Below, in pieces: positions 1-7,847 of a stretch of 7,847 bases of DNA. Under the pieces are notes generated by a model. That model did not search any database. It had not been told where the DNA came from and saw only the letters and a list, made by a program, of their open reading frames with translations. Positions within the stretch are counted from its first letter, which is position 1. Each line of letters opens with the position of its first letter. Origin of the DNA: a virus (Duplodnaviria; Heunggongvirae; Uroviricota; Caudoviricetes); the IMG/VR virus record IMGVR_UViG_2711768002_000001, one strand, 5' to 3'. A program made the translations under genes and the position numbers.

Positions 1-98
1 AGGGACAGCTGATAGAAACAGAAGCCACTGGAGCACCTCAAAAACACCATCATACACTAAATCAGTAAGTTGGCAGCATCACCTCATTCGTCTGTTCC

Positions 99-605
99 TT
101 AAATCTTCCAGGAAATTTCTGCATTGCCGTCAGCATCACCGGCACCTGTGAATTCAGCGTTGGTCAGCACCACGTTTTTGCCACTGACTGACGTGGACAT
201 GAATCCACCCAGCGGCACTTTGATGGATTCATCAGTGGAGACGACAACGTATACCGGATCGCCTTTTTTGATAGTGCTGGCATCAAAATCAGAACCGAGA
301 TTAACGGTCACGTAGCCACGCTTCATGGCGTCGCCCGGGAAGTTCTTGCCTGTTCCCACCTGGCGAACCATGTCCGGCTGCGACGTGGTCGGATAAGGGC
401 GCACGTAGATCCCCTTCACCTTGTCTGCGGTATCACCATCTGCCAGCGGCACGAAAAAACCGTCATCATCGTATTTACCAGCCAGGCCATAGGCAGCGAA
501 GGCGTTATCGGATTTAAGGACCACCGGTTCGACGGTTAAGTCCTGCGGGCGAGAGACAGCCCCGGCAATGCCAACAGGCATCCGGTACAGAAATACATTA
601 TTCAT
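99..605 (-). CDS. Small phage head protein (168 aa), in the position of a head decoration/cement-type protein; product tentative
   Basis: Intact ORF with ATG at 605..603 and TAA at 101..99. An AAGGG Shine-Dalgarno lies 7 nt upstream. It starts 3 nt after the scaffold-like gene stop, in the lambda-like order scaffold -> small head protein. The sequence is Gly/Val/Thr-rich with no TM segment. Family assignment not verified. Confidence 0.6.
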   Translation of the reverse strand: MNNVFLYRMPVGIAGAVSRPQDLTVEPVVLKSDNAFAAYGLAGKYDDDGFFVPLADGDTADKVKGIYVRPYPTTSQPDMVRQVGTGKNFPGDAMKRGYVTVNLGSDFDASTIKKGDPVYVVVSTDESIKVPLGGFMSTSVSGKNVVLTNAEFTGAGDADGNAEISWKI

Positions 606-608
606 TTT

Positions 609-1829
609 TTACCCTTTACGGTTTGCCCAGAATTCAGCGTTTTGTTTGTTCAGGGAAGCGATACTGGTCATGCCCATGTTTAGGCGCTGTGCATCGCCGG
701 TGGTGGCGCGGGTGTTTCGCCCTTTGGCAACCTCAGACACGGCATTAAACGCCATGTCGACCGATTGTTTCGGTAATTTGCGGATATCCGCATCACCGAC
801 TATCTGGCGAACCAGCGTTTTGTCAGCAGAAGCCAGAACCTCGCGTTTGAACGCGGTCGGTTTCATCTTACGGCTCAGATCGATACCCGGAACGATAACT
901 TCGGCACGCCAGGCTGAGTCACCAGTAATCGTGGTTTCCTCTTCATCGTCCTCGCCGTCACCGGTCGGATTATCGTCAGGCTTATTATCGTTATCGCCCG
1001 TGGCATTTCTTTCCAGCTTAGCCAGCAGGGCTTTCAGTAATGTTTTGAGGTCATCATCACTGTCGCCGGTTGGATCTCCGCCCATCTCTGGTGCTTTGTC
1101 CGGTAGTGGTTGCTGCGGGGACAGGTTGATGTTGAGATTAACGCCCTGCGGCAAATCCCCCTCATCTCCTGTAACCGATGCGGGAGCCGACTCCACCAGT
1201 TCGTTCATGGTGTCGGCATCTCCTGTCTTGATGGCCGCACGCATGCGGTTCCACCAGTTTTTCTTTTGATTTGCCATTGTGTCTCTGTCTCCAATTGCAC
1301 AACGATTTCCGGCTCTGCCTTTAGGGACAAGAGCCACATGGTTTCCGGTAATATCGACCTGCTCGGCTTTACCTGGCTCGGTCTGCTCGTACTCCGCGTC
1401 ATAGCCGCACGACACTTCGCGCAGGCCATCTTCGATAAGCTGAATGGCGCTTTCGTCTTTGACGATAAGGTCAGCCAGCATCAAATCAGACTGCTCACCC
1501 GTCCCGCGCCGGACATTCTGGAGGTGCCCGACAGCAAGCTCTTTCCAGTTCTCGGGATTTACCAGCCGCACATTCCCGTTTTCATCTTCAGGATGCAGGA
1601 TCGTGATGCTCATCCCTTCGAATGAGGCAAGCGTGGCCGGATGGAATACCTGCTCAGGAGAACGCGTGACGACTATTTCACCGAACTTATCGGGTTTCAG
1701 TTTTGGCAGGTCATCAGCACCATAGAGCTGCTTACCTGTTCGTCCTATCGGCACGTCTTTGCACAGCAACGAGCCGTCAGCCAGGCGGTATCGGGTTTCC
1801 CCGAGCCTGGTCTCAAAAAAGTATTTCAT
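609..1829 (-). CDS. Phage head scaffolding/maturation-like protein (406 aa) with an acidic low-complexity central linker
   Basis: Intact ORF with ATG at 1829..1827, 3 nt after the upstream TAA, and TAA at 611..609. The central region is highly acidic (DSDDD ... DNDNKPDDNPTGDGEDDEEETT) with reiterated TGD motifs, typical of scaffold-like proteins. It sits between the head morphogenesis gene and the small head protein. Family not verified. Confidence 0.65.
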   Translation of the reverse strand: MKYFFETRLGETRYRLADGSLLCKDVPIGRTGKQLYGADDLPKLKPDKFGEIVVTRSPEQVFHPATLASFEGMSITILHPEDENGNVRLVNPENWKELAVGHLQNVRRGTGEQSDLMLADLIVKDESAIQLIEDGLREVSCGYDAEYEQTEPGKAEQVDITGNHVALVPKGRAGNRCAIGDRDTMANQKKNWWNRMRAAIKTGDADTMNELVESAPASVTGDEGDLPQGVNLNINLSPQQPLPDKAPEMGGDPTGDSDDDLKTLLKALLAKLERNATGDNDNKPDDNPTGDGEDDEEETTITGDSAWRAEVIVPGIDLSRKMKPTAFKREVLASADKTLVRQIVGDADIRKLPKQSVDMAFNAVSEVAKGRNTRATTGDAQRLNMGMTSIASLNKQNAEFWANRKG

Positions 1830-1832
1830 GGG

Positions 1833-2615
1833 TTATGCTGCCCTTTTCATTGCGAATGGAACGCGAACAAACACGATCTCTTTATAGCAGCGGCAGTTTG
1901 GCAGCTCGCCCGCGTGGCCGGTCATGCCGTCCAAAGTTGGAGGTGAATCCCAGCGGACGAATTTACCTTTCATGTGATCGTGGGAATCTCGGACATCGCC
2001 ATCATCGGCTGTACGCCAAATATAACCATCCGAGCCAATAGCTATCGCTCGGGCCATATCCAGCGCGCCCGTTGCTCTTCCCAGTTCCGTTCGGGCAATC
2101 AGATCGGCCCTAGACTTAGCAACATCGCCGGTAGATGCAATCTCTTTAGCAAACTGCTCCGCCCGACCACCGGTGACAACAGCCTCTATCGCTTTGTTCT
2201 GGATGTCGTACACCCTGTCTGCGGCCTCGAGAGGCAGAGATTTGATGTACTTGACCTGTTCGGCGATGATGGATTGCATCACCTGGCCCACAGGAGCGCT
2301 TTCCACAAGATTGCGGAGCTCGCGACTGATGTTCTTGCTGTGTTGCCGCCAAACTTTCTCGTTCTGCCGGGTTAGGTCCGCAGTAAAGTTTTCCGCGACC
2401 TTTGTCGCCCAGGGGGTGATGATTTCACTGTAACGCTCCAGCGCCGCAATAATTTCCGTGATACTGTCATTTGAACCATCGTAGCGACCATTTACGATGT
2501 CTCCGACCGCCCTCGCTATCCTGCGTAGGCTGGTTCGATACCGGATTTCCGCCTGACGGCTCCTGCGGTTCGTCATCAGGTTCGCCGATGCCGGGCGGCG
2601 CTTCATCTTCGGCAT
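1833..2615 (-). CDS. Phage head morphogenesis protein, Mu gpF / SPP1 gp7-like (260 aa)
   Basis: Intact ORF with ATG at 2615..2613 and a GAGGA Shine-Dalgarno 8 nt upstream; TAA at 1835..1833. It contains an ADLIARTELGRA-type motif and a basic N-terminus, and lies immediately downstream of the portal as in Mu/SPP1-type head modules. The 5' 149 nt overlap the portal 3' end in another frame. Confidence 0.75.
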   Translation of the reverse strand: MPKMKRRPASANLMTNRRSRQAEIRYRTSLRRIARAVGDIVNGRYDGSNDSITEIIAALERYSEIITPWATKVAENFTADLTRQNEKVWRQHSKNISRELRNLVESAPVGQVMQSIIAEQVKYIKSLPLEAADRVYDIQNKAIEAVVTGGRAEQFAKEIASTGDVAKSRADLIARTELGRATGALDMARAIAIGSDGYIWRTADDGDVRDSHDHMKGKFVRWDSPPTLDGMTGHAGELPNCRCYKEIVFVRVPFAMKRAA

Positions 2616-3549
2616 TCTCGATGTCCTCGTCGGTAATGGATGCCCCGATGCCGGTTACGTCAGAATTTTCTCGCAAATCAGTCATAGCGGCTTTCAGTGT
2701 CATCAGACCATCACCCAGCGCCGTACTGATTGCGTTGGTGGTGTTTAACGCCACCGTTGAGCGATCGACATCAGACATTTGCCAGAGCGGGTTAAACTCA
2801 AACGTGAAATCGTCCGGCAGCGGCTTGCCAAGTTCCGAACGATGCATGATGTCCAGTATCCGCCGCACCGGAAGACGTAAACGCCTCTCCTGCAACGAAC
2901 TGATGCGATCGTAATAGTTGGCAAGGTCTGCATCACCGGTAGAAAATCCTTTCGGGGACTGTCCGAACAACCGCACCAGTGGGATACCAACAGCGCCACT
3001 AATCTGTTCTACAAACTGCGAAAGGATGTCATCCAGACCACTGAAGCTGTACTGATGGGTTTCAAACTTATCCCGCGAGTCCATGAGCGTCATGCCTTCA
3101 TTACTCTGGAACTGTCGAATCAGGTCGATATTCTTCAGCAACGCTTCATACGCAGGACCACCAAGTGCGATAAGCTCGCGTAGCTTCTCCACGCTGTAGG
3201 TACGCAAATGCGCCTTGTAGACCAGCTGCGCCGCGCCGACAGTAGCGCTGTCGAACGCGGTAAGACGATCCCAGATACGCTCTACAACCGACATTCCCCA
3301 TTCGTTCTCGGTCATCTTCTGCTGAAATGGCAACGTGACGCCATCAAAGCGAATCAGGCGACTGTGATGAATGCGCCAGGCAGGAATTCCCGTTGCTGTG
3401 GTCACCACATCGTAAAACTCAGGTTTACCCAGGTCCGGCCCCATATCTTTAATGCGGCGGGTCAGTGCCGGGTCGACCATCCAGCGGTCGAGCGGGAGAA
3501 TCCCCTTAAACTTGCCCTTACCGATGGTTTCGGGTCGCAGCGGGGTCAT
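2467..3549 (-). CDS. Phage portal protein, intact 3' segment (360 codons) downstream of the second in-frame TAG
   Basis: ORF from ATG at 3549..3547 (GAGGGG 9 nt upstream) to TGA at 2469..2467. It has an acidic C-terminal tail (DEDIENAEDEAPPGIGEPDDEPQEP) typical of portals and sits directly after terL. This ATG is in frame with the upstream interrupted portal sequence. Confidence 0.8.
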   Translation of the reverse strand: MTPLRPETIGKGKFKGILPLDRWMVDPALTRRIKDMGPDLGKPEFYDVVTTATGIPAWRIHHSRLIRFDGVTLPFQQKMTENEWGMSVVERIWDRLTAFDSATVGAAQLVYKAHLRTYSVEKLRELIALGGPAYEALLKNIDLIRQFQSNEGMTLMDSRDKFETHQYSFSGLDDILSQFVEQISGAVGIPLVRLFGQSPKGFSTGDADLANYYDRISSLQERRLRLPVRRILDIMHRSELGKPLPDDFTFEFNPLWQMSDVDRSTVALNTTNAISTALGDGLMTLKAAMTDLRENSDVTGIGASITDEDIENAEDEAPPGIGEPDDEPQEPSGGNPVSNQPTQDSEGGRRHRKWSLRWFK

Positions 3550-3933
3550 TGGTGCCTACCCCTCAATCATGATGAAACCCACCGCGCCGCCGTAGAGGCG
3601 CGACCATTTCAGCACGTCATTCAGCGCATCCCAGATTTGCAACTCATCCAGTTGTGATTCGAGAATGCCACGATCTTTTGCATCAATTTCCGAAGTGATG
3701 CGAATGCCTTTGCGGGTCATATCATCCGGGATAGCATCGACTGCTTCGCCGATGATCTAGGATGAACGATAGGACCATTCCACCAGCATGCGGTTACGAC
3801 TGGTGAAATTAGCCCGGTAGGTGGATGCTGAGTGCTGGTTAGGTGTCTGCATCCCTACGCGGGCAATAAAATTCTCATAACCATCAGCTGTGGCCTGCAC
3901 AGTTCGCCGCAGGGCTTGTTTGTTTCGTGCCAT
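2467..3933 (-). pseudogene. Full-length portal reading frame (about 488 codons) interrupted by two in-frame TAG codons
   Basis: Hand translation of the minus strand from ATG 3933..3931 gives MARNKQALRRTVQATADGYENFIARVGMQTPNQHSASTYRANFTSRNRMLVEWSYRSS, then TAG (3759..3757), then IIGEAVDAIPDDMTRKGIRITSEIDAKDRGILESQLDELQIWDALNDVLKWSRLYGGAVGFIMIEG, then TAG (3558..3556), then APMTPLRPET... All are in one frame (3759-3558 = 201 = 67x3). The ATG overlaps the terL TGA (TGATG) and has a GGGGAGA Shine-Dalgarno. Confidence 0.7.
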
Positions 3934-5336
3934 CAGGCCTGTCTCCCCAGCTGTTCCCAGATATCCAGCGATGTATCGATTGGCGCGAAGGCCATAATGA
4001 ATGCATCAGCAACGTTTGGTGACGGTATCTCGCGTTTTGCGAGGTCTTTTTTACTTTCGACCATCACACGTCCGTTACGGTCGAAATCACGATGAGGTGT
4101 TGTCAGTTCCAGTTTCAGCTTTTCAAGCAACGGACAACGAGAATCTATGCTGATCAGCTCATCCACAGGATACTGTTCTCCGTTGTTAATGGCGTTAAAC
4201 GTATTTCTGAAACGGTCAGCCACCAGCCACCATGCCTGAGCCTTAAGATTTGCGAAAAAGTCTTTGTTGGGGATGCCGTTGTACTCGTCATCTGGCTCAT
4301 GCACACCAGCACCGGCGTTAAACCTCTGGTAATTCACACGTCGCGCGTATGCGTTCTCGCTCTTCCGGTCAGCGTTAATTTCAGAGAATTTAGCACCGGC
4401 AGACGCACCAACACCGATAGAGTCGTAAACAATATCTGCTTCACGCTCCAGCGCCGCCTGATAAGTACGCTGGCAGCTCTTCAGTAATTCATCTTCTTTG
4501 GCCTTCCATTCGTCGGCCCAGAAAACAACGGATCCGTGACGGTAAACGTTAGCGCACTTATCTGTACCACTGTCAGCCACGTCAAAGCCAATACGCTTTC
4601 TTCCACTGGGTTCGAAATTTAACGTTTTGTGCGCATCCACTGCGGCTTCTATCCAAGACAGTTTGATGATTGCCGCATCATCATCAGACTCCGGAACGCC
4701 CTCATACACATGTTTAAAACCATCCGGATCACGGCGTCGCGCCGCGTCGATAACCTTAAGCATGGTGTCAGACAGAAACGGATTTTCGTCATAGTTAATT
4801 TTGCGGATGAGAGTGCCTTCGGGCGGATCAACAACGAAGTTGCGCCAGACGAAATCAGTAACAAGTCCGGGGTTGAATATGAACCAGCATTCCGAACCCT
4901 CTTTACGGATCGTTGGCTCCAGAATTTTCCACTGGTATTCCGTCAGTGCGTGGGCTTCTTCCAGCCACAACACATCGATCCCCTCCAGTGACTTAATTTC
5001 TTCGATGTTGCGCCATAATCCATAAAAAACAAATTCCGAGCCAGTAACCCGGTTAATGATTTTGTTGTTCAGAATACGGAAACGGTGCCGCAGACCAAAC
5101 CTGTCTATCTGAATTTTGAGCAGGGTATACACCGACTCTTCGATTTTATTCTGGATCTGACGGGCACAACAAAAACGCAGGGTGTATTTATTCGACAGAA
5201 ATATGGCAATGCCAGCGGCATCCCATGATTTTGACGATGACCGACCACCATAAAGCACTTTGTTACGTGCCCGCATAGTCCAGAAACTACGTAAAGCCGG
5301 ATTCAGCGTCGGTTTGGATGTCAGAGTAGAAGTCAT
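3933..5336 (-). CDS. Terminase large subunit (ATPase/nuclease); start uncertain
   Basis: Long minus-strand ORF with TGA at 3935..3933. Walker A-like VLYGGRSSSKS and Walker B-like IDVLWLEEAH are present. The six-frame ORF extends to a TTG at 5444, but that would overlap terS by 157 nt. In-frame ATGs at 5375, 5363, 5360, 5354 and 5336 are candidate starts. I chose 5336 (about 50-nt overlap with terS) as a compromise. Confidence 0.85.
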   Translation of the reverse strand: MTSTLTSKPTLNPALRSFWTMRARNKVLYGGRSSSKSWDAAGIAIFLSNKYTLRFCCARQIQNKIEESVYTLLKIQIDRFGLRHRFRILNNKIINRVTGSEFVFYGLWRNIEEIKSLEGIDVLWLEEAHALTEYQWKILEPTIRKEGSECWFIFNPGLVTDFVWRNFVVDPPEGTLIRKINYDENPFLSDTMLKVIDAARRRDPDGFKHVYEGVPESDDDAAIIKLSWIEAAVDAHKTLNFEPSGRKRIGFDVADSGTDKCANVYRHGSVVFWADEWKAKEDELLKSCQRTYQAALEREADIVYDSIGVGASAGAKFSEINADRKSENAYARRVNYQRFNAGAGVHEPDDEYNGIPNKDFFANLKAQAWWLVADRFRNTFNAINNGEQYPVDELISIDSRCPLLEKLKLELTTPHRDFDRNGRVMVESKKDLAKREIPSPNVADAFIMAFAPIDTSLDIWEQLGRQA

Positions 5337-6051
5337 TGAGGTCACGCTCTCCATTGCCATCATCAATACCTGCATCACGGCGAAGACGATCAGCCTCCAG
5401 AGACACCTTATCAGTGGCGGCCTTGCGGTAGGCTGTATCAGCAAATATTTTTCCTACCGTCGCAAGCGTGCCAACGATGGACTCAATACGAACTGTATTG
5501 CGCATCATTGCTTTCTCGGCGGCGCTGATATTTTCAATCAGCATCTTCCTTTCCTGGTCCCCATTAGCATCTTCCAGCGACACCAACCACCGACCAATAT
5601 TCTCTGCAGCGACAAGGTTGTTAGCACGAAGGCGAAATAATTCGTCCTCGAGCGTCAACGCTTTAGCGTCCTCTATCACCTCATCTTTGAGCAGAAGGCG
5701 ACGGGCATAACCACCGTGTTTTAATGCCTGCTGGTTACCGGGTTGGAATGGGTTAGTCGGGGGATCGGTACGCATTCCGCGTATCGGTTTCGTATCCGGT
5801 GTAGATTCTGTTTTTAGTTGCGTACTTTTTTGTGTAAGGCCAGTAATGGCAGGCTTTCTGCTGGTACGCACTTTCCTTTTTTGCGTACCATTTTTGCAAA
5901 CCTGCGTACCGCCACTGCGTGCCCAACCAAGCTTTTTGGCCCTCTTCCTGATAGCCCCTTCTGTAACGCCGTATTTCTCGCCTATATCACGGAGGCTAAG
6001 GACTCCGGCCCGGTATGCCGATTCGATGGCCTCCCAGTCCGGTTTTGCCAT
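5287..6051 (-). CDS. Terminase small subunit (254 aa) with N-terminal helix-turn-helix
   Basis: ATG at 6051..6049 with an AGGAAG Shine-Dalgarno about 8 nt upstream; TAG at 5289..5287. The N-terminus (LSLRDIGEKYGVTEGAIRKRAKKLGW) is HTH-like. An NPFQPGNQQALKHGGY motif resembles conserved small-terminase motifs. It lies immediately upstream of terL. Confidence 0.8.
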   Translation of the reverse strand: MAKPDWEAIESAYRAGVLSLRDIGEKYGVTEGAIRKRAKKLGWARSGGTQVCKNGTQKRKVRTSRKPAITGLTQKSTQLKTESTPDTKPIRGMRTDPPTNPFQPGNQQALKHGGYARRLLLKDEVIEDAKALTLEDELFRLRANNLVAAENIGRWLVSLEDANGDQERKMLIENISAAEKAMMRNTVRIESIVGTLATVGKIFADTAYRKAATDKVSLEADRLRRDAGIDDGNGERDLNDFYSDIQTDAESGFT

Positions 6052-6165
6052 GATTATGCTTCCTGTGATTTACTGTTATCGCTGCCTGTCACAATAGGTT
6101 GCTTTAATTCTTCCTCATCACTCACTCCTGCGACGCTCCGTGGCAGGGCCCCCCACAGGAGTACC

Positions 6166-6195
6166 TTGTAAATGTAAGGTGTTTAAGCCTAAATT
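6166..6195 (+). promoter_or_regulatory. Candidate sigma70-type promoter for the moron (-35 TTGTAA, 18-nt spacer, -10 TAAATT)
   Basis: Hexamer match seen by eye in the AT-rich sequence 50-80 nt upstream of the 6249 ATG. Not scored computationally. Confidence 0.2.
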
Positions 6196-6248
6196 AAGTC
6201 GTATCACGGTTAAATAGCAAAGAAAAATTCACAGAAGGAAAGACATTG

Positions 6249-6758
6249 ATGGAGTGGATAAATGCTTTGATGAACTATTTTGTACTTCATCCATATCGCC
6301 TATGGGGGCTTCTTTTTATAATAGCGTTCACAAAATCCACTTTACTCATTTCGGCGATATTGCCACCAGCATCAATTATGATGGCCACTGTAATTACAGT
6401 CAGCAAGACGACTCTTTCACCATGGGAAGCTGGAATCACGGTCATGAGTGGCGCATGGTGCGGTACTATCGTTAATTACCATCTTGGTATAATAATTGGG
6501 CATATCCCTCAACTTGCATGTATAATATCAAGCCGTTCCAATACAATAGAACGGGTTCGCCTTCAGTTGCAAAATAACTCTGTGTCAATACTTTTCACTT
6601 CGCGCTTTATCGCCGTGCTGCGTTATATTGCTCCTTTGGTGGCAGGAATGTTGCAACTTCATCCAGTGAAAGTGTATACAGTGAGTCTGATTTCAGCTGC
6701 TAGCTGGTCAGCACTTTATGTTGGTAGTTTTAGCTTCGTGTTGCCTTTTTTTAGCTAA
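6249..6758 (+). CDS. Small polytopic inner-membrane protein, divergent DedA/YqaA (VTT-domain)-like; moron
   Basis: ATG at 6249 (the ORF track starts at a TTG at 6246) with a GAAGGAAAG Shine-Dalgarno; TAA at 6756..6758. It is the only plus-strand gene and is visibly AT-rich compared with the flanks. There are 4-5 hydrophobic segments. SRFIAVLRYIAPLVAGMLQL resembles the DedA GRFIPxxRxxxPxxAG motif, and NYHLGIIIG resembles the Y-x-LGR motif, but the conserved acidic/basic residues are not obvious. Confidence 0.55.
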   Translation: MEWINALMNYFVLHPYRLWGLLFIIAFTKSTLLISAILPPASIMMATVITVSKTTLSPWEAGITVMSGAWCGTIVNYHLGIIIGHIPQLACIISSRSNTIERVRLQLQNNSVSILFTSRFIAVLRYIAPLVAGMLQLHPVKVYTVSLISAASWSALYVGSFSFVLPFFS

Positions 6759-6846
6759 ACTGCCCATAAAAAGCTCTTGCGAATCCAGCTTCCCCCATTC
6801 CTCTGACAACAGAATCTGATTTGAAGGATAATGAGTAAAATTACCG

Positions 6847-7245
6847 CTACCCCCCAAGGCATTGGATCCTGATGTACTCCTGAAGCATTCTCAATGCTGT
6901 CTGGTCGCTGATGATTCCGTCCCGGATACCGAGAACGTTTCGTCCAGCAACTGGAGAGAGTTCGACGGTGGCATCATTGCCCATGCCGGAGGCGCTGGAG
7001 GTTTCGGCTGAGGATGGCACAGGGCATTTTCCTTTGACGAGCACCCGACCACCATTATCAAGCTTGCGCCGAAGAGCATCATTTTCAGCTTTCGCATCAG
7101 CTAACTCCAGCTTCAGTTCTCTTGCGTTTTTGTCGCGCTGCTCTTTGTAGGTAATGGCGTTATCACGGTAATGATTAACAGCCCATGACAGGCGGACGAT
7201 GATGCAGATAACCAGAGCGGAGATAATCGCGGTGACTCTGCTCAT
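6847..7245 (-). CDS. Rz: Rz-like i-spanin (inner-membrane spanin subunit)
   Basis: ATG at 7245..7243 overlaps the endolysin TGA as ATGA; TAG at 6849..6847. It has an N-terminal TM segment ([18 protein letters not shown]) followed by a charged, coiled-coil-like region ([29 protein letters not shown]). The ORF track's GTG at 7257 is probably an over-extension. Confidence 0.75.
6891..7097 (-). CDS. Rz1: Rz1-like o-spanin (outer-membrane lipoprotein), fully embedded in Rz in another frame
   Basis: ATG at 7097..7095. It has a signal peptide with a lipobox (LIMVVGC followed by SSK) and a proline-rich mature part ([17 protein letters not shown]). It lies entirely inside the Rz coding region, as in lambda Rz/Rz1. 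Confidence 0.7.
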
Positions 7246-7739
7246 TGCTGCCCCCACAAACAGACTTCACGCTCAATCTCACGACGGGTCATCAGCCCTT
7301 TCCATTGCTTACCGCCAGCATATGTCCAGCGACATAGCTGGTCACATGCGCCTTTGATATAGCCCTGGTTTATTTTGCGAAGAAGCGTCGATGTTCTGAA
7401 ATTGCCAGCGCCCACGTTGTAAACGAACGAGTAAAGAGCGCCGCGCGTTGTTTCCGGTATATCGACTTTGATGTACGGGTTAATTTGTCTGGCGACAGTG
7501 GCAAGGTCTTTATTCAGGAGAGCTTTGCATTCTGCTTCGGTATACGTTTTACCAGGCATGATGTCTTTTCCGGTGTGTCCGTGACATACAGTCCATACAC
7601 CAATGATATCTTTGTATAGTATGTAGCTGACACCTTCCAGACCATCGTTACCACCTGGGCCAGTGATTAACACAGATGCTATAGCAACAGCCCCGCCACC
7701 AATAGCAACTGCAACAGCCTTGCGTAATGATGGCGACAT
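7242..7739 (-). CDS. SAR (signal-anchor-release) endolysin, T4-lysozyme-like muramidase; phage 21 R-like
   Basis: ATG at 7739..7737 with a GAGAGGTGA Shine-Dalgarno; TGA at 7244..7242. The N-terminus has a Gly/Ala-rich weakly hydrophobic SAR segment ([23 protein letters not shown]). This is followed by a catalytic E-x8-D-x5-T arrangement ([16 protein letters not shown]). It is 165 aa and followed by Rz/Rz1. Confidence 0.9.
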
Positions 7740-7793
7740 TATTCACCTCTCGCAGCCTTACTAGACTGGCCCCCTGAATCTCCAGACAACCAG

Positions 7794-7813
7794 TATCACT
7801 TAAATAAGTGATA
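7794..7813. promoter_or_regulatory. 20-bp palindrome TATCACTTA-AA-TAAGTGATA (9-bp perfect arms), operator-like
   Basis: Arms verified as exact reverse complements. The half-site begins TATCAC, as in lambdoid repressor operator half-sites. It lies about 55 bp upstream of the endolysin start in a region with no ORF. Confidence 0.3.
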
Positions 7814-7847
7814 GTCTTAATACTAGTTTTTAGACTAGTCATTGGAG

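What the first reader, a model, noticed from the sequence alone, without database searches (positions are those of the whole stretch)
3754..3762. First portal amber codon lies in CTAGG, the expected deamination product of a Dcm CCAGG site
The plus strand reads ATCTAGGA at 3755..3762. If the ancestral minus-strand codon was TGG (Trp), the plus strand would have been CCAGG, a Dcm methylation site. Deamination of the inner 5-methylcytosine at 3758 gives exactly the observed CTAGG. Dcm sites are classic nonsense-mutation hotspots in E. coli. This would favour natural mutational decay in a Dcm+ enterobacterial host over an engineered change. The second TAG (3556..3558) is not in a Dcm context.
Basis: inference. 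Interest (0 to 1): 0.45.

Follow-up and report, generated by a model that had tools for sequence, protein, structure and literature searches.

The report
Amber stop at former Dcm site
A dead prophage in Shigella sonnei lost its portal gene partly through a Trp-to-stop change that sits exactly where a methylated cytosine (Dcm site CCAGG) would turn into T, which is a textbook kind of mutation and not a new phenomenon.

Summary
The window is an IS1/IS2-bounded remnant of a lambdoid prophage in the Shigella sonnei chromosome.

- **The site.** The portal gene (PF06381; minus strand, 2467..3933) carries TAG at codon 59 (plus CTA, 3757..3759). It lies inside plus-strand CTAGG at 3757..3761.
- **Ancestral state.** Every close intact relative reads TCC-TGG, which is CCAGG on the plus strand. 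This holds for 9 fetched E. coli, Shigella and phage loci, for Salmonella phage SEN34, and for 142 complete E. coli genomes holding the C-form 53-mer. The change is therefore C>T at the inner C of a Dcm site (3758), giving W59*.
- **Natural origin.** Both ambers occur together in every S. sonnei locus inspected (17) and their fragments are indexed in more than 2,500 assembly blocks. This is natural decay, not engineering and not a nanopore artefact.
- **Cause.** 5-methylcytosine deamination is probable but not provable from one site. One of 6 derived GC>AT transitions hits the 0.8% of G/C bases that are Dcm targets, which chance gives about 5% of the time. Dcm activity in S. sonnei was supported only indirectly.

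The phenomenon is ordinary and already known.

The parts
3757..3761 (+). CTAGG, a former Dcm site (ancestral CCAGG). Base 3758 is the derived T, which was the inner, methylatable C.
   Evidence: Searches give the sequence. Searches show C at 3758 in all 11 relatives aligned there. One search finds the C-form in 142 E. coli genomes and one search finds the T-form in none.
3757..3759 (-). First in-frame amber of the portal gene: codon 59, TGG (Trp) changed to TAG.
   Evidence: Trp (TGG) is at this position in 51 of 59 orthologous loci, down to 35% identity.
3556..3558 (-). Second in-frame amber: codon 126, CAG (Gln) changed to TAG. The ancestral context GGGCAGGCA is not CCWGG.
2467..3933 (-). 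Portal pseudogene of the PF06381 / DUF1073 family. It carries W59*, Q126* and A308V (base 3011), all three derived on the S. sonnei branch.
   Evidence: The intact orthologue scores Pfam PF06381 E=3e-106 and phrog_146 'portal protein' E=1e-174.
84..7761 (-). Remnant of a lambdoid prophage late region. It contains cement protein, DUF2213 head protein, Mu-F-like head morphogenesis protein, portal, TerL, a hypothetical protein, a DedA moron on the plus strand, an Rz-like lysis gene, RrrD lysozyme and a truncated holin.
   Evidence: Annotation of relatives, Pfam, S. sonnei loci.
1..83 (.). IS1 end that truncates the prophage on the structural-gene side.
   Evidence: 100% match to an IS1A copy in L006. 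An IS1 transposase is adjacent in the S. sonnei loci.
7762..7847 (.). IS2 end inserted in the holin gene.
   Evidence: 100% match to an IS2 end in L006. An IS3-family transposase follows in the S. sonnei loci.

Best explanation
The window is a defective prophage fragment in the Shigella sonnei chromosome, bounded by insertion sequences. Its portal gene was killed by point mutations.

The first stop (W59*) arose when the inner cytosine of a Dcm site on the template strand became T (plus-strand CCAGG at 3757..3761, base 3758). The most likely route has four steps. Dcm methylated that cytosine. The 5-methylcytosine deaminated spontaneously to thymine. The resulting T:G mismatch escaped Vsr very-short-patch repair. 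Replication then fixed CTAGG, which reads TAG on the coding strand.

Shown here: the ancestral CCAGG/TGG state, the direction of the change, that it is fixed in S. sonnei, and that the element is a decaying prophage. Inferred: that methylation, rather than an ordinary replication error or deamination of unmethylated C, caused this particular transition, and that the host lineage was Dcm-positive at the time.
For: - **Sequence and frame:**
- **Ancestral state:** the closest intact relatives (99.8% identity) have C at 3758 and G at 3558. Outgroups polarise both as derived in S. sonnei. TCC-TGG is present in all orthologues at 95% identity or more and in SEN34. The C-form 53-mer is in 142 E. coli genomes and the T-form in none of 5,426.
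- **Source and spread:** the window is identical to S. sonnei 53G and nine other S. sonnei chromosomes. The 58-aa and 360-aa fragments created by the stops are listed in 2,737 and 2,576 assembly blocks.
- **Statistics:** 1 of 6 derived GC>AT transitions hits the 0.81% of G/C bases that are Dcm targets. The chance probability is 4.8%. The likelihood ratio is about 5.7 in favour of an 8-fold hotspot.
- **Literature on Dcm sites:** CCAGG sites were the amber hotspots in lacI, over-represented about 10-fold (Coulondre 1978, as reviewed in PMC12606429). The inner C of CCWGG mutates to T about 8-fold faster than other C in natural E. coli and Salmonella (Cherry 2018, as cited in PMC9520237). Vsr is expressed mainly in stationary phase, which leaves residual hotspots (PMC3527292, PMC2715241).
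- **Host Dcm status (indirect):** a Dcm-aware basecalling model specifically improved S. sonnei nanopore consensus (PMC6591954).
Against: - GC>AT transitions are the commonest derived change on this branch. Five of the six fall outside Dcm sites, so an ordinary transition that happens to land on a Dcm site cannot be excluded. The chance probability of about 5-8% is not negligible.
- Dcm and Vsr were not located in any S. sonnei genome with these tools (searches were uninformative about organism).
- No independent recurrence of the same C>T was seen in 142 E. coli copies of the site. Selection on functional prophages would, however, remove such nonsense alleles.
- One analysis of mutation-accumulation data at triplet level saw no excess at CCA/CCT (PMC5887664). 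That analysis did not isolate the full CCWGG motif.
Confidence: 0.75

Rival explanations
1. This is an ordinary, methylation-independent GC>AT transition, from a replication error or from deamination of unmethylated C to U. It happens to fall on a Dcm site, and the context is coincidence.
For: Five other derived GC>AT transitions on the same branch lie outside Dcm sites (3011, 3558, 6530, 7334, 7618). The second amber arose without any Dcm context. The chance probability of one hit is 4.8-8%. Host Dcm was not verified directly.
Against: If the host is Dcm-positive and the published 8-10-fold hotspot factor applies, about 85-90% of C>T events at such a base are attributable to methylation. The observed hit rate (1 of 6) is about 20 times the uniform expectation (0.8%).
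Confidence: 0.22
2. This is a sequencing artefact. Nanopore basecallers miscall Dcm-methylated CCWGG sites, so CTAGG could be a false call of CCAGG.
For: About 95% of ONT-versus-Illumina discrepancies in E. coli lay at CC(A/T)GG sites (PMC6703438). About 70% of ONT consensus errors lay in Dcm motifs (PMC6591954).
Against: The same T is present in ten independent S. sonnei chromosomes, including 53G (HE616528.1). The resulting 58-aa ORF is indexed in 2,737 assembly blocks. About 2,300 of those have 5-10 kb contigs, the size expected when short-read assemblies break at the flanking IS copies. The other 15 CCWGG sites in the window are intact.
Confidence: 0.01
3. The amber codons are engineered laboratory amber mutations, or are functional through suppression, readthrough or TAG recoding.
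For: Two TAG codons, rather than TGA or TAA, in one essential phage gene resemble classical amber mutants.
Against: The element is a chromosomal remnant cut by IS1 and IS2 with further decay: three missense changes in rrrD and a truncated holin. It is fixed across clinical S. sonnei assemblies. There is no tRNA gene in the window. Relatives encode ordinary Trp and Gln at these codons. No other in-frame TAG occurs in the neighbouring genes.
Confidence: 0.01

Closest known systems
lacI amber hotspots at CCAGG (Coulondre, Miller, Farabaugh and Gilbert 1978) and the lambda cI am6 CCAGG>CTAGG system used by Lieb to define very-short-patch repair
   Same: The same motif, the same base (the inner C of CCAGG) and the same product (CTAGG) creating a TAG codon. 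The same proposed chemistry applies: 5mC deamination that escapes Vsr. The lambda cI am6 detail is from my own memory.
   Different: In lacI the hotspots were CAG>TAG on the strand carrying CCAGG. Here the codon is TGG>TAG, because the deaminated 5mC is on the template strand. Here it is a single fixed natural event, not a measured recurrent hotspot.
Methylation-induced hypermutation in natural enterobacterial populations (Cherry 2018)
   Same: C>T at the inner C of CCWGG is elevated about 8-fold in natural E. coli and Salmonella genomes (as cited in PMC9520237). The present case is one such event in an E. coli-derived lineage.
   Different: That work is a population-scale rate estimate. This is one site in one pseudogene, and the original paper could not be read here.
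IS-driven and point-mutational genome decay in Shigella
   Same: A prophage remnant bounded by IS1 and IS2, with nonsense and missense decay, in S. sonnei. The topic is covered by PMC7373316, which was listed but not read in detail.
   Different: Nothing distinctive. This is a typical example.

Membership tests
Dcm-site 5-methylcytosine deamination mutation | The ancestral sequence is CCWGG. | tested here: met
   CCAGG on the plus strand (TCC-TGG on the coding strand) in L001, L002, L004-L008, L010, L091 and L092. The C-form 53-mer is in 142 E. coli genomes.
Dcm-site 5-methylcytosine deamination mutation | The change is C>T at the inner (second) C, or G>A opposite it. | tested here: met
   Base 3758 changed C>T. 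It is the second C of CCAGG at 3757..3761 and the change is polarised by outgroups.
Dcm-site 5-methylcytosine deamination mutation | The host lineage has active Dcm, so the site is actually methylated. | tested here: inconclusive
   The K-12 dcm-vsr locus was retrieved and the exact K-12 Dcm protein is extremely widespread (54,742 blocks). Its UniRef100 cluster is assigned to the taxon Enterobacteriaceae. No look-up could be tied to an S. sonnei genome. There is indirect literature support for Dcm methylation of S. sonnei DNA (PMC6591954).
Dcm-site 5-methylcytosine deamination mutation | The mutation rate at the site is elevated, seen as recurrence or statistical excess. | tested here: inconclusive
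   One of 6 derived transitions falls at the 0.81% target positions, P=0.048. There is no independent recurrence in E. coli genomes, but selection would purge it in functional prophages.
Phage portal protein, PF06381 (Phage_portal_3 / DUF1073) | Profile match over the full domain, and a position between the large terminase and head-morphogenesis genes. | tested here: met
   PF06381 E=3.3e-106 covering profile positions 7-355 of 357, and phrog_146 'portal protein' E=1.4e-174. The flanking genes are Terminase_3 and Phage_Mu_F.
Defective (cryptic) prophage pseudogene | Premature stops relative to intact orthologues, fixed in the host population, in an element that cannot form particles. | tested here: met
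   Two in-frame stops. IS1 and IS2 truncate the element. The same fragments are present in all S. sonnei loci inspected and in more than 2,500 assembly blocks.
Programmed TAG readthrough, suppression or recoding | A suppressor tRNA, or TAG at conserved sense positions across relatives. | tested here: not met
   No tRNA in the window. Relatives have TGG and CAG, not TAG, at these positions.

The most novel reading that the evidence does not exclude
Dcm methylation may be a quantitatively important driver of pseudogene formation during Shigella genome decay. That would show as nonsense mutations in S. sonnei pseudogenes enriched at CCWGG well beyond the roughly 8-fold seen in E. coli, perhaps because very-short-patch repair is weakened in this lineage. 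The portal W59* would then be one visible instance of a lineage-wide bias.
Probability: 0.12. Interest if true: 0.35.

Novelty: already known. Interest (0 to 1): 0.12.

Why it matters
It matters little beyond annotation. It shows that the two in-frame TAG codons in this portal gene are ordinary mutational decay of a cryptic Shigella sonnei prophage. They are not recoding, not engineering and not a sequencing artefact. One of them is a clean natural example of the classical Dcm-site (CCAGG>CTAGG) nonsense mutation. It could serve as a teaching example, or as one data point in a genome-wide test of methylation-driven pseudogenisation in Shigella.

Tried and rejected
- **Direct check for dcm in S. 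sonnei.** I searched the K-12 Dcm protein, listed its cluster and looked up encoding contigs for two alleles. The outputs carry no organism names, and none matched the S. sonnei accessions. This was inconclusive.
- **Nanopore-style errors as a proxy for methylation.** I compared ten S. sonnei loci looking for errors at CCWGG. The differences were homopolymer indels and IS variants, with only one near a Dcm motif. This was uninformative.
- **Primary papers not held.** Lee 2012, Cherry 2018, Gomez-Eichelmann 1991 and Militello 2012 were unavailable. Their content is cited only through secondary sources.
- **Independent recurrence in E. coli.** A 53-mer search for the T allele found none. This is not informative about mutation rate, because functional prophages are under selection.
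- **Suppressor tRNA or recoding.** No tRNA was found, so this was rejected.
- **The 11 differences from the three nearest relatives.** I first treated all of them as window-derived. Outgroup polarisation showed that 622, 5055 and 5593 are derived in the relatives instead, so the statistics were redone with 8 derived substitutions, of which 6 are GC>AT.

Full report
**Observation.** The window reads GATCTAGGA at 3754..3762, and CTAGG occupies 3757..3761. All structural genes lie on the minus strand. The ORF 2467..3933 translates as a 488-codon protein interrupted by two TAG codons. Codon 59 is plus CTA at 3757..3759, and codon 126 is plus CTA at 3556..3558.

**What the locus is.** The intact orthologue of this ORF matches Pfam PF06381 (Phage_portal_3, formerly DUF1073) at E=3e-106 over the whole profile, and matches PHROG 146 'portal protein'. 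It sits between a Terminase_3 large terminase and a Mu-F-like head-morphogenesis gene. The window's first 83 bases are an IS1 end and its last 86 bases are an IS2 end.

An exact-protein look-up of the 360-aa C-terminal fragment returned ten chromosomes. These include HE616528.1, CP019689.1 and CP022457.1; that these records are Shigella sonnei (HE616528.1 being strain 53G) is from my own knowledge, because the look-up outputs carry no organism names. The window is 100% identical to most of them, apart from one 72-bp deletion. The remnant lies beside pgl, ybhD-like and pectinesterase genes. From my own knowledge, that is the lambda attachment region.

The 58-aa N-terminal fragment and the 360-aa C-terminal fragment created by the stops are indexed in 2,737 and 2,576 assembly blocks. 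About 2,300 of each have contigs of 5-10 kb, which is the size of this IS-bounded piece. Every locus inspected carries both stops. The stops are therefore fixed features of S. sonnei.

**Ancestral state.** Three E. coli genomes (FDAARGOS_944, FDAARGOS_943, VL40) carry the same prophage segment at 99.8% identity with an intact portal. They have C at 3758 and G at 3558. This gives TGG (Trp) at codon 59 preceded by TCC, and CAG (Gln) at codon 126.

A scan of species-representative genomes, plus phage records, gave 59 orthologous loci.
- Trp (TGG) is at codon 59 in 51 of them, down to 35% protein identity.
- All loci at 95% identity or more, from E. coli, S. flexneri and phage vB_EcoM-689R2, read TCC-TGG. 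So does Salmonella phage SEN34. This is CCTGG on the coding strand and CCAGG on the window's plus strand.
- More distant relatives use TCG or TCA for the serine, so they lack the Dcm site.

A 53-mer designed so that every 28-base seed spans position 3758 found the C form in 142 of 5,426 complete E. coli genomes and the T form in none. Codon 126 is CAG or CAA in 58 of those 59 loci (the one exception, at 29% identity, has Gly). In the close relatives it sits in GGG-CAG-GCA, which is not CCWGG.

**Branch-specific changes.** Outgroup polarisation leaves eight substitutions derived on the S. sonnei branch within the 7.7-kb prophage part.

| Position | Change | Effect |
|---|---|---|
| 3011 | G>A | portal A308V |
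| 3558 | G>A | portal Q126* |
| 3758 | C>T | portal W59* |
| 6530 | G>A | synonymous in dedA |
| 7194 | A>G | downstream of the 72-bp deletion, in the Rz-like gene |
| 7334 | G>A | rrrD R136C |
| 7361 | C>A | rrrD D127Y |
| 7618 | G>A | rrrD P41L |

Six of the eight are GC>AT transitions, and only 3758 lies at a Dcm position.

**Statistics.** The ancestral sequence has 16 CCWGG sites, matching the 15.9 expected from composition. They provide 32 methylatable positions, or 0.81% of G/C bases.
- Under uniform rates, the probability that at least one of six transitions falls there is 4.8%.
- Conditioning on nonsense changes, 2 of 49 GC>AT nonsense paths in the portal are at Dcm positions, which gives 8% for at least one of the two observed.
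- Against an 8-fold hotspot the likelihood ratio is about 5.7.

**Mechanism.** Established knowledge supplies the rest.
- Dcm methylates the second C of CCWGG.
- 5-methylcytosine deaminates to T.
- Vsr-initiated very-short-patch repair restores C but is active mainly in stationary phase (PMC2715241, PMC3527292).
- CCAGG sites were the amber hotspots in lacI, over-represented about 10-fold (PMC12606429).
- In natural E. coli and Salmonella genomes, the inner C mutates to T about 8-fold faster than other C (Cherry 2018, as cited in PMC9520237).

If S. sonnei or its E. coli ancestor was Dcm-positive, roughly 85-90% of C>T events at such a base would be due to methylation. I could not locate dcm in an S. 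sonnei genome with the available tools. Indirect support comes from a Dcm-aware nanopore basecalling model, which specifically improved consensus accuracy for K. pneumoniae and S. sonnei. Its authors attribute that improvement to Dcm motifs (PMC6591954). From memory, dcm-vsr is core to E. coli apart from the B lineage. Overall I put about 0.75 on 5mC deamination as the cause, and about 0.2 on an ordinary transition that coincides with the motif.

**Rivals rejected.**
- **Nanopore miscalls.** These are well documented at Dcm sites (PMC6703438). However, the T is present in independent chromosomes and in thousands of short contigs, and the other 15 CCWGG sites are intact.
- **Engineering or functional readthrough.** This is excluded by the IS truncation, by further decay in the lysis genes, by the absence of any tRNA, and by ordinary sense codons in relatives.

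**Verdict.** This is a textbook Dcm-site nonsense mutation in a decaying cryptic prophage of Shigella sonnei. It is already known in kind and of low interest.

Noticed in passing
window 7108|7109: The window lacks 72 bp (24 codons, in frame) of the Rz-like lysis gene. These bases are present in all ten S. sonnei chromosomes and in every E. coli relative examined. Neither possible product of the shortened gene (132 or 136 aa) exists in the 153-billion-gene index. It could be a strain-private deletion or an assembly artefact.
   Followed up: partly
window 7242..7739 (rrrD lysozyme): Three of the eight S. sonnei-derived substitutions are missense changes in rrrD (P41L, D127Y, R136C), and three more are in the portal. 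None falls in the roughly 4.5 kb of capsid, head-morphogenesis and terminase genes. Decay is clustered.
   Followed up: partly
window 1..83 and 7762..7847: The window begins in an IS1 end and finishes in an IS2 end. About 2,300 assembly blocks carry this segment on 5-10 kb contigs. The window is therefore probably a whole short-read contig that broke at repeated IS copies.
   Followed up: partly
window 3556..3720 (54-aa ORF between the two ambers): PHROG family phrog_28295 ('unknown function', 54 positions) matches residues 72-125 of the intact portal exactly. This suggests a database family built from this pseudogene fragment.
   Followed up: no
orthologous portal genes in E. coli genomes: RefSeq names some orthologues of this portal, for example in BL21 and other strains, 'anti-CBASS protein Acb1 family protein'. 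Others are named 'DUF1073 domain-containing protein'. Pfam and PHROGs call it a portal, so this looks like an annotation inconsistency.
   Followed up: no
window 84..7761: CTAG occurs 3 times against about 30 expected from base composition, which is the usual enterobacterial CTAG depletion. One of the three is the derived amber site.
   Followed up: partly
window 3754..3761: The ancestral Dcm site overlapped a Dam site: GATCCAGG, with GATC at 3754..3757 sharing C3757. The GATC is still intact.
   Followed up: no
L006 (E. coli FDAARGOS_943) 4750..9589: The nearest E. coli copy of this prophage is decaying independently. It has an IS2 inside terL and an internal stop in the head-morphogenesis gene, while its portal is intact.
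   Followed up: no
window 6246..6758 (+): A DedA/VTT-family membrane protein gene lies on the opposite strand, between the packaging and lysis modules. It looks like a moron and is intact in S. sonnei, with one synonymous change.
   Followed up: no
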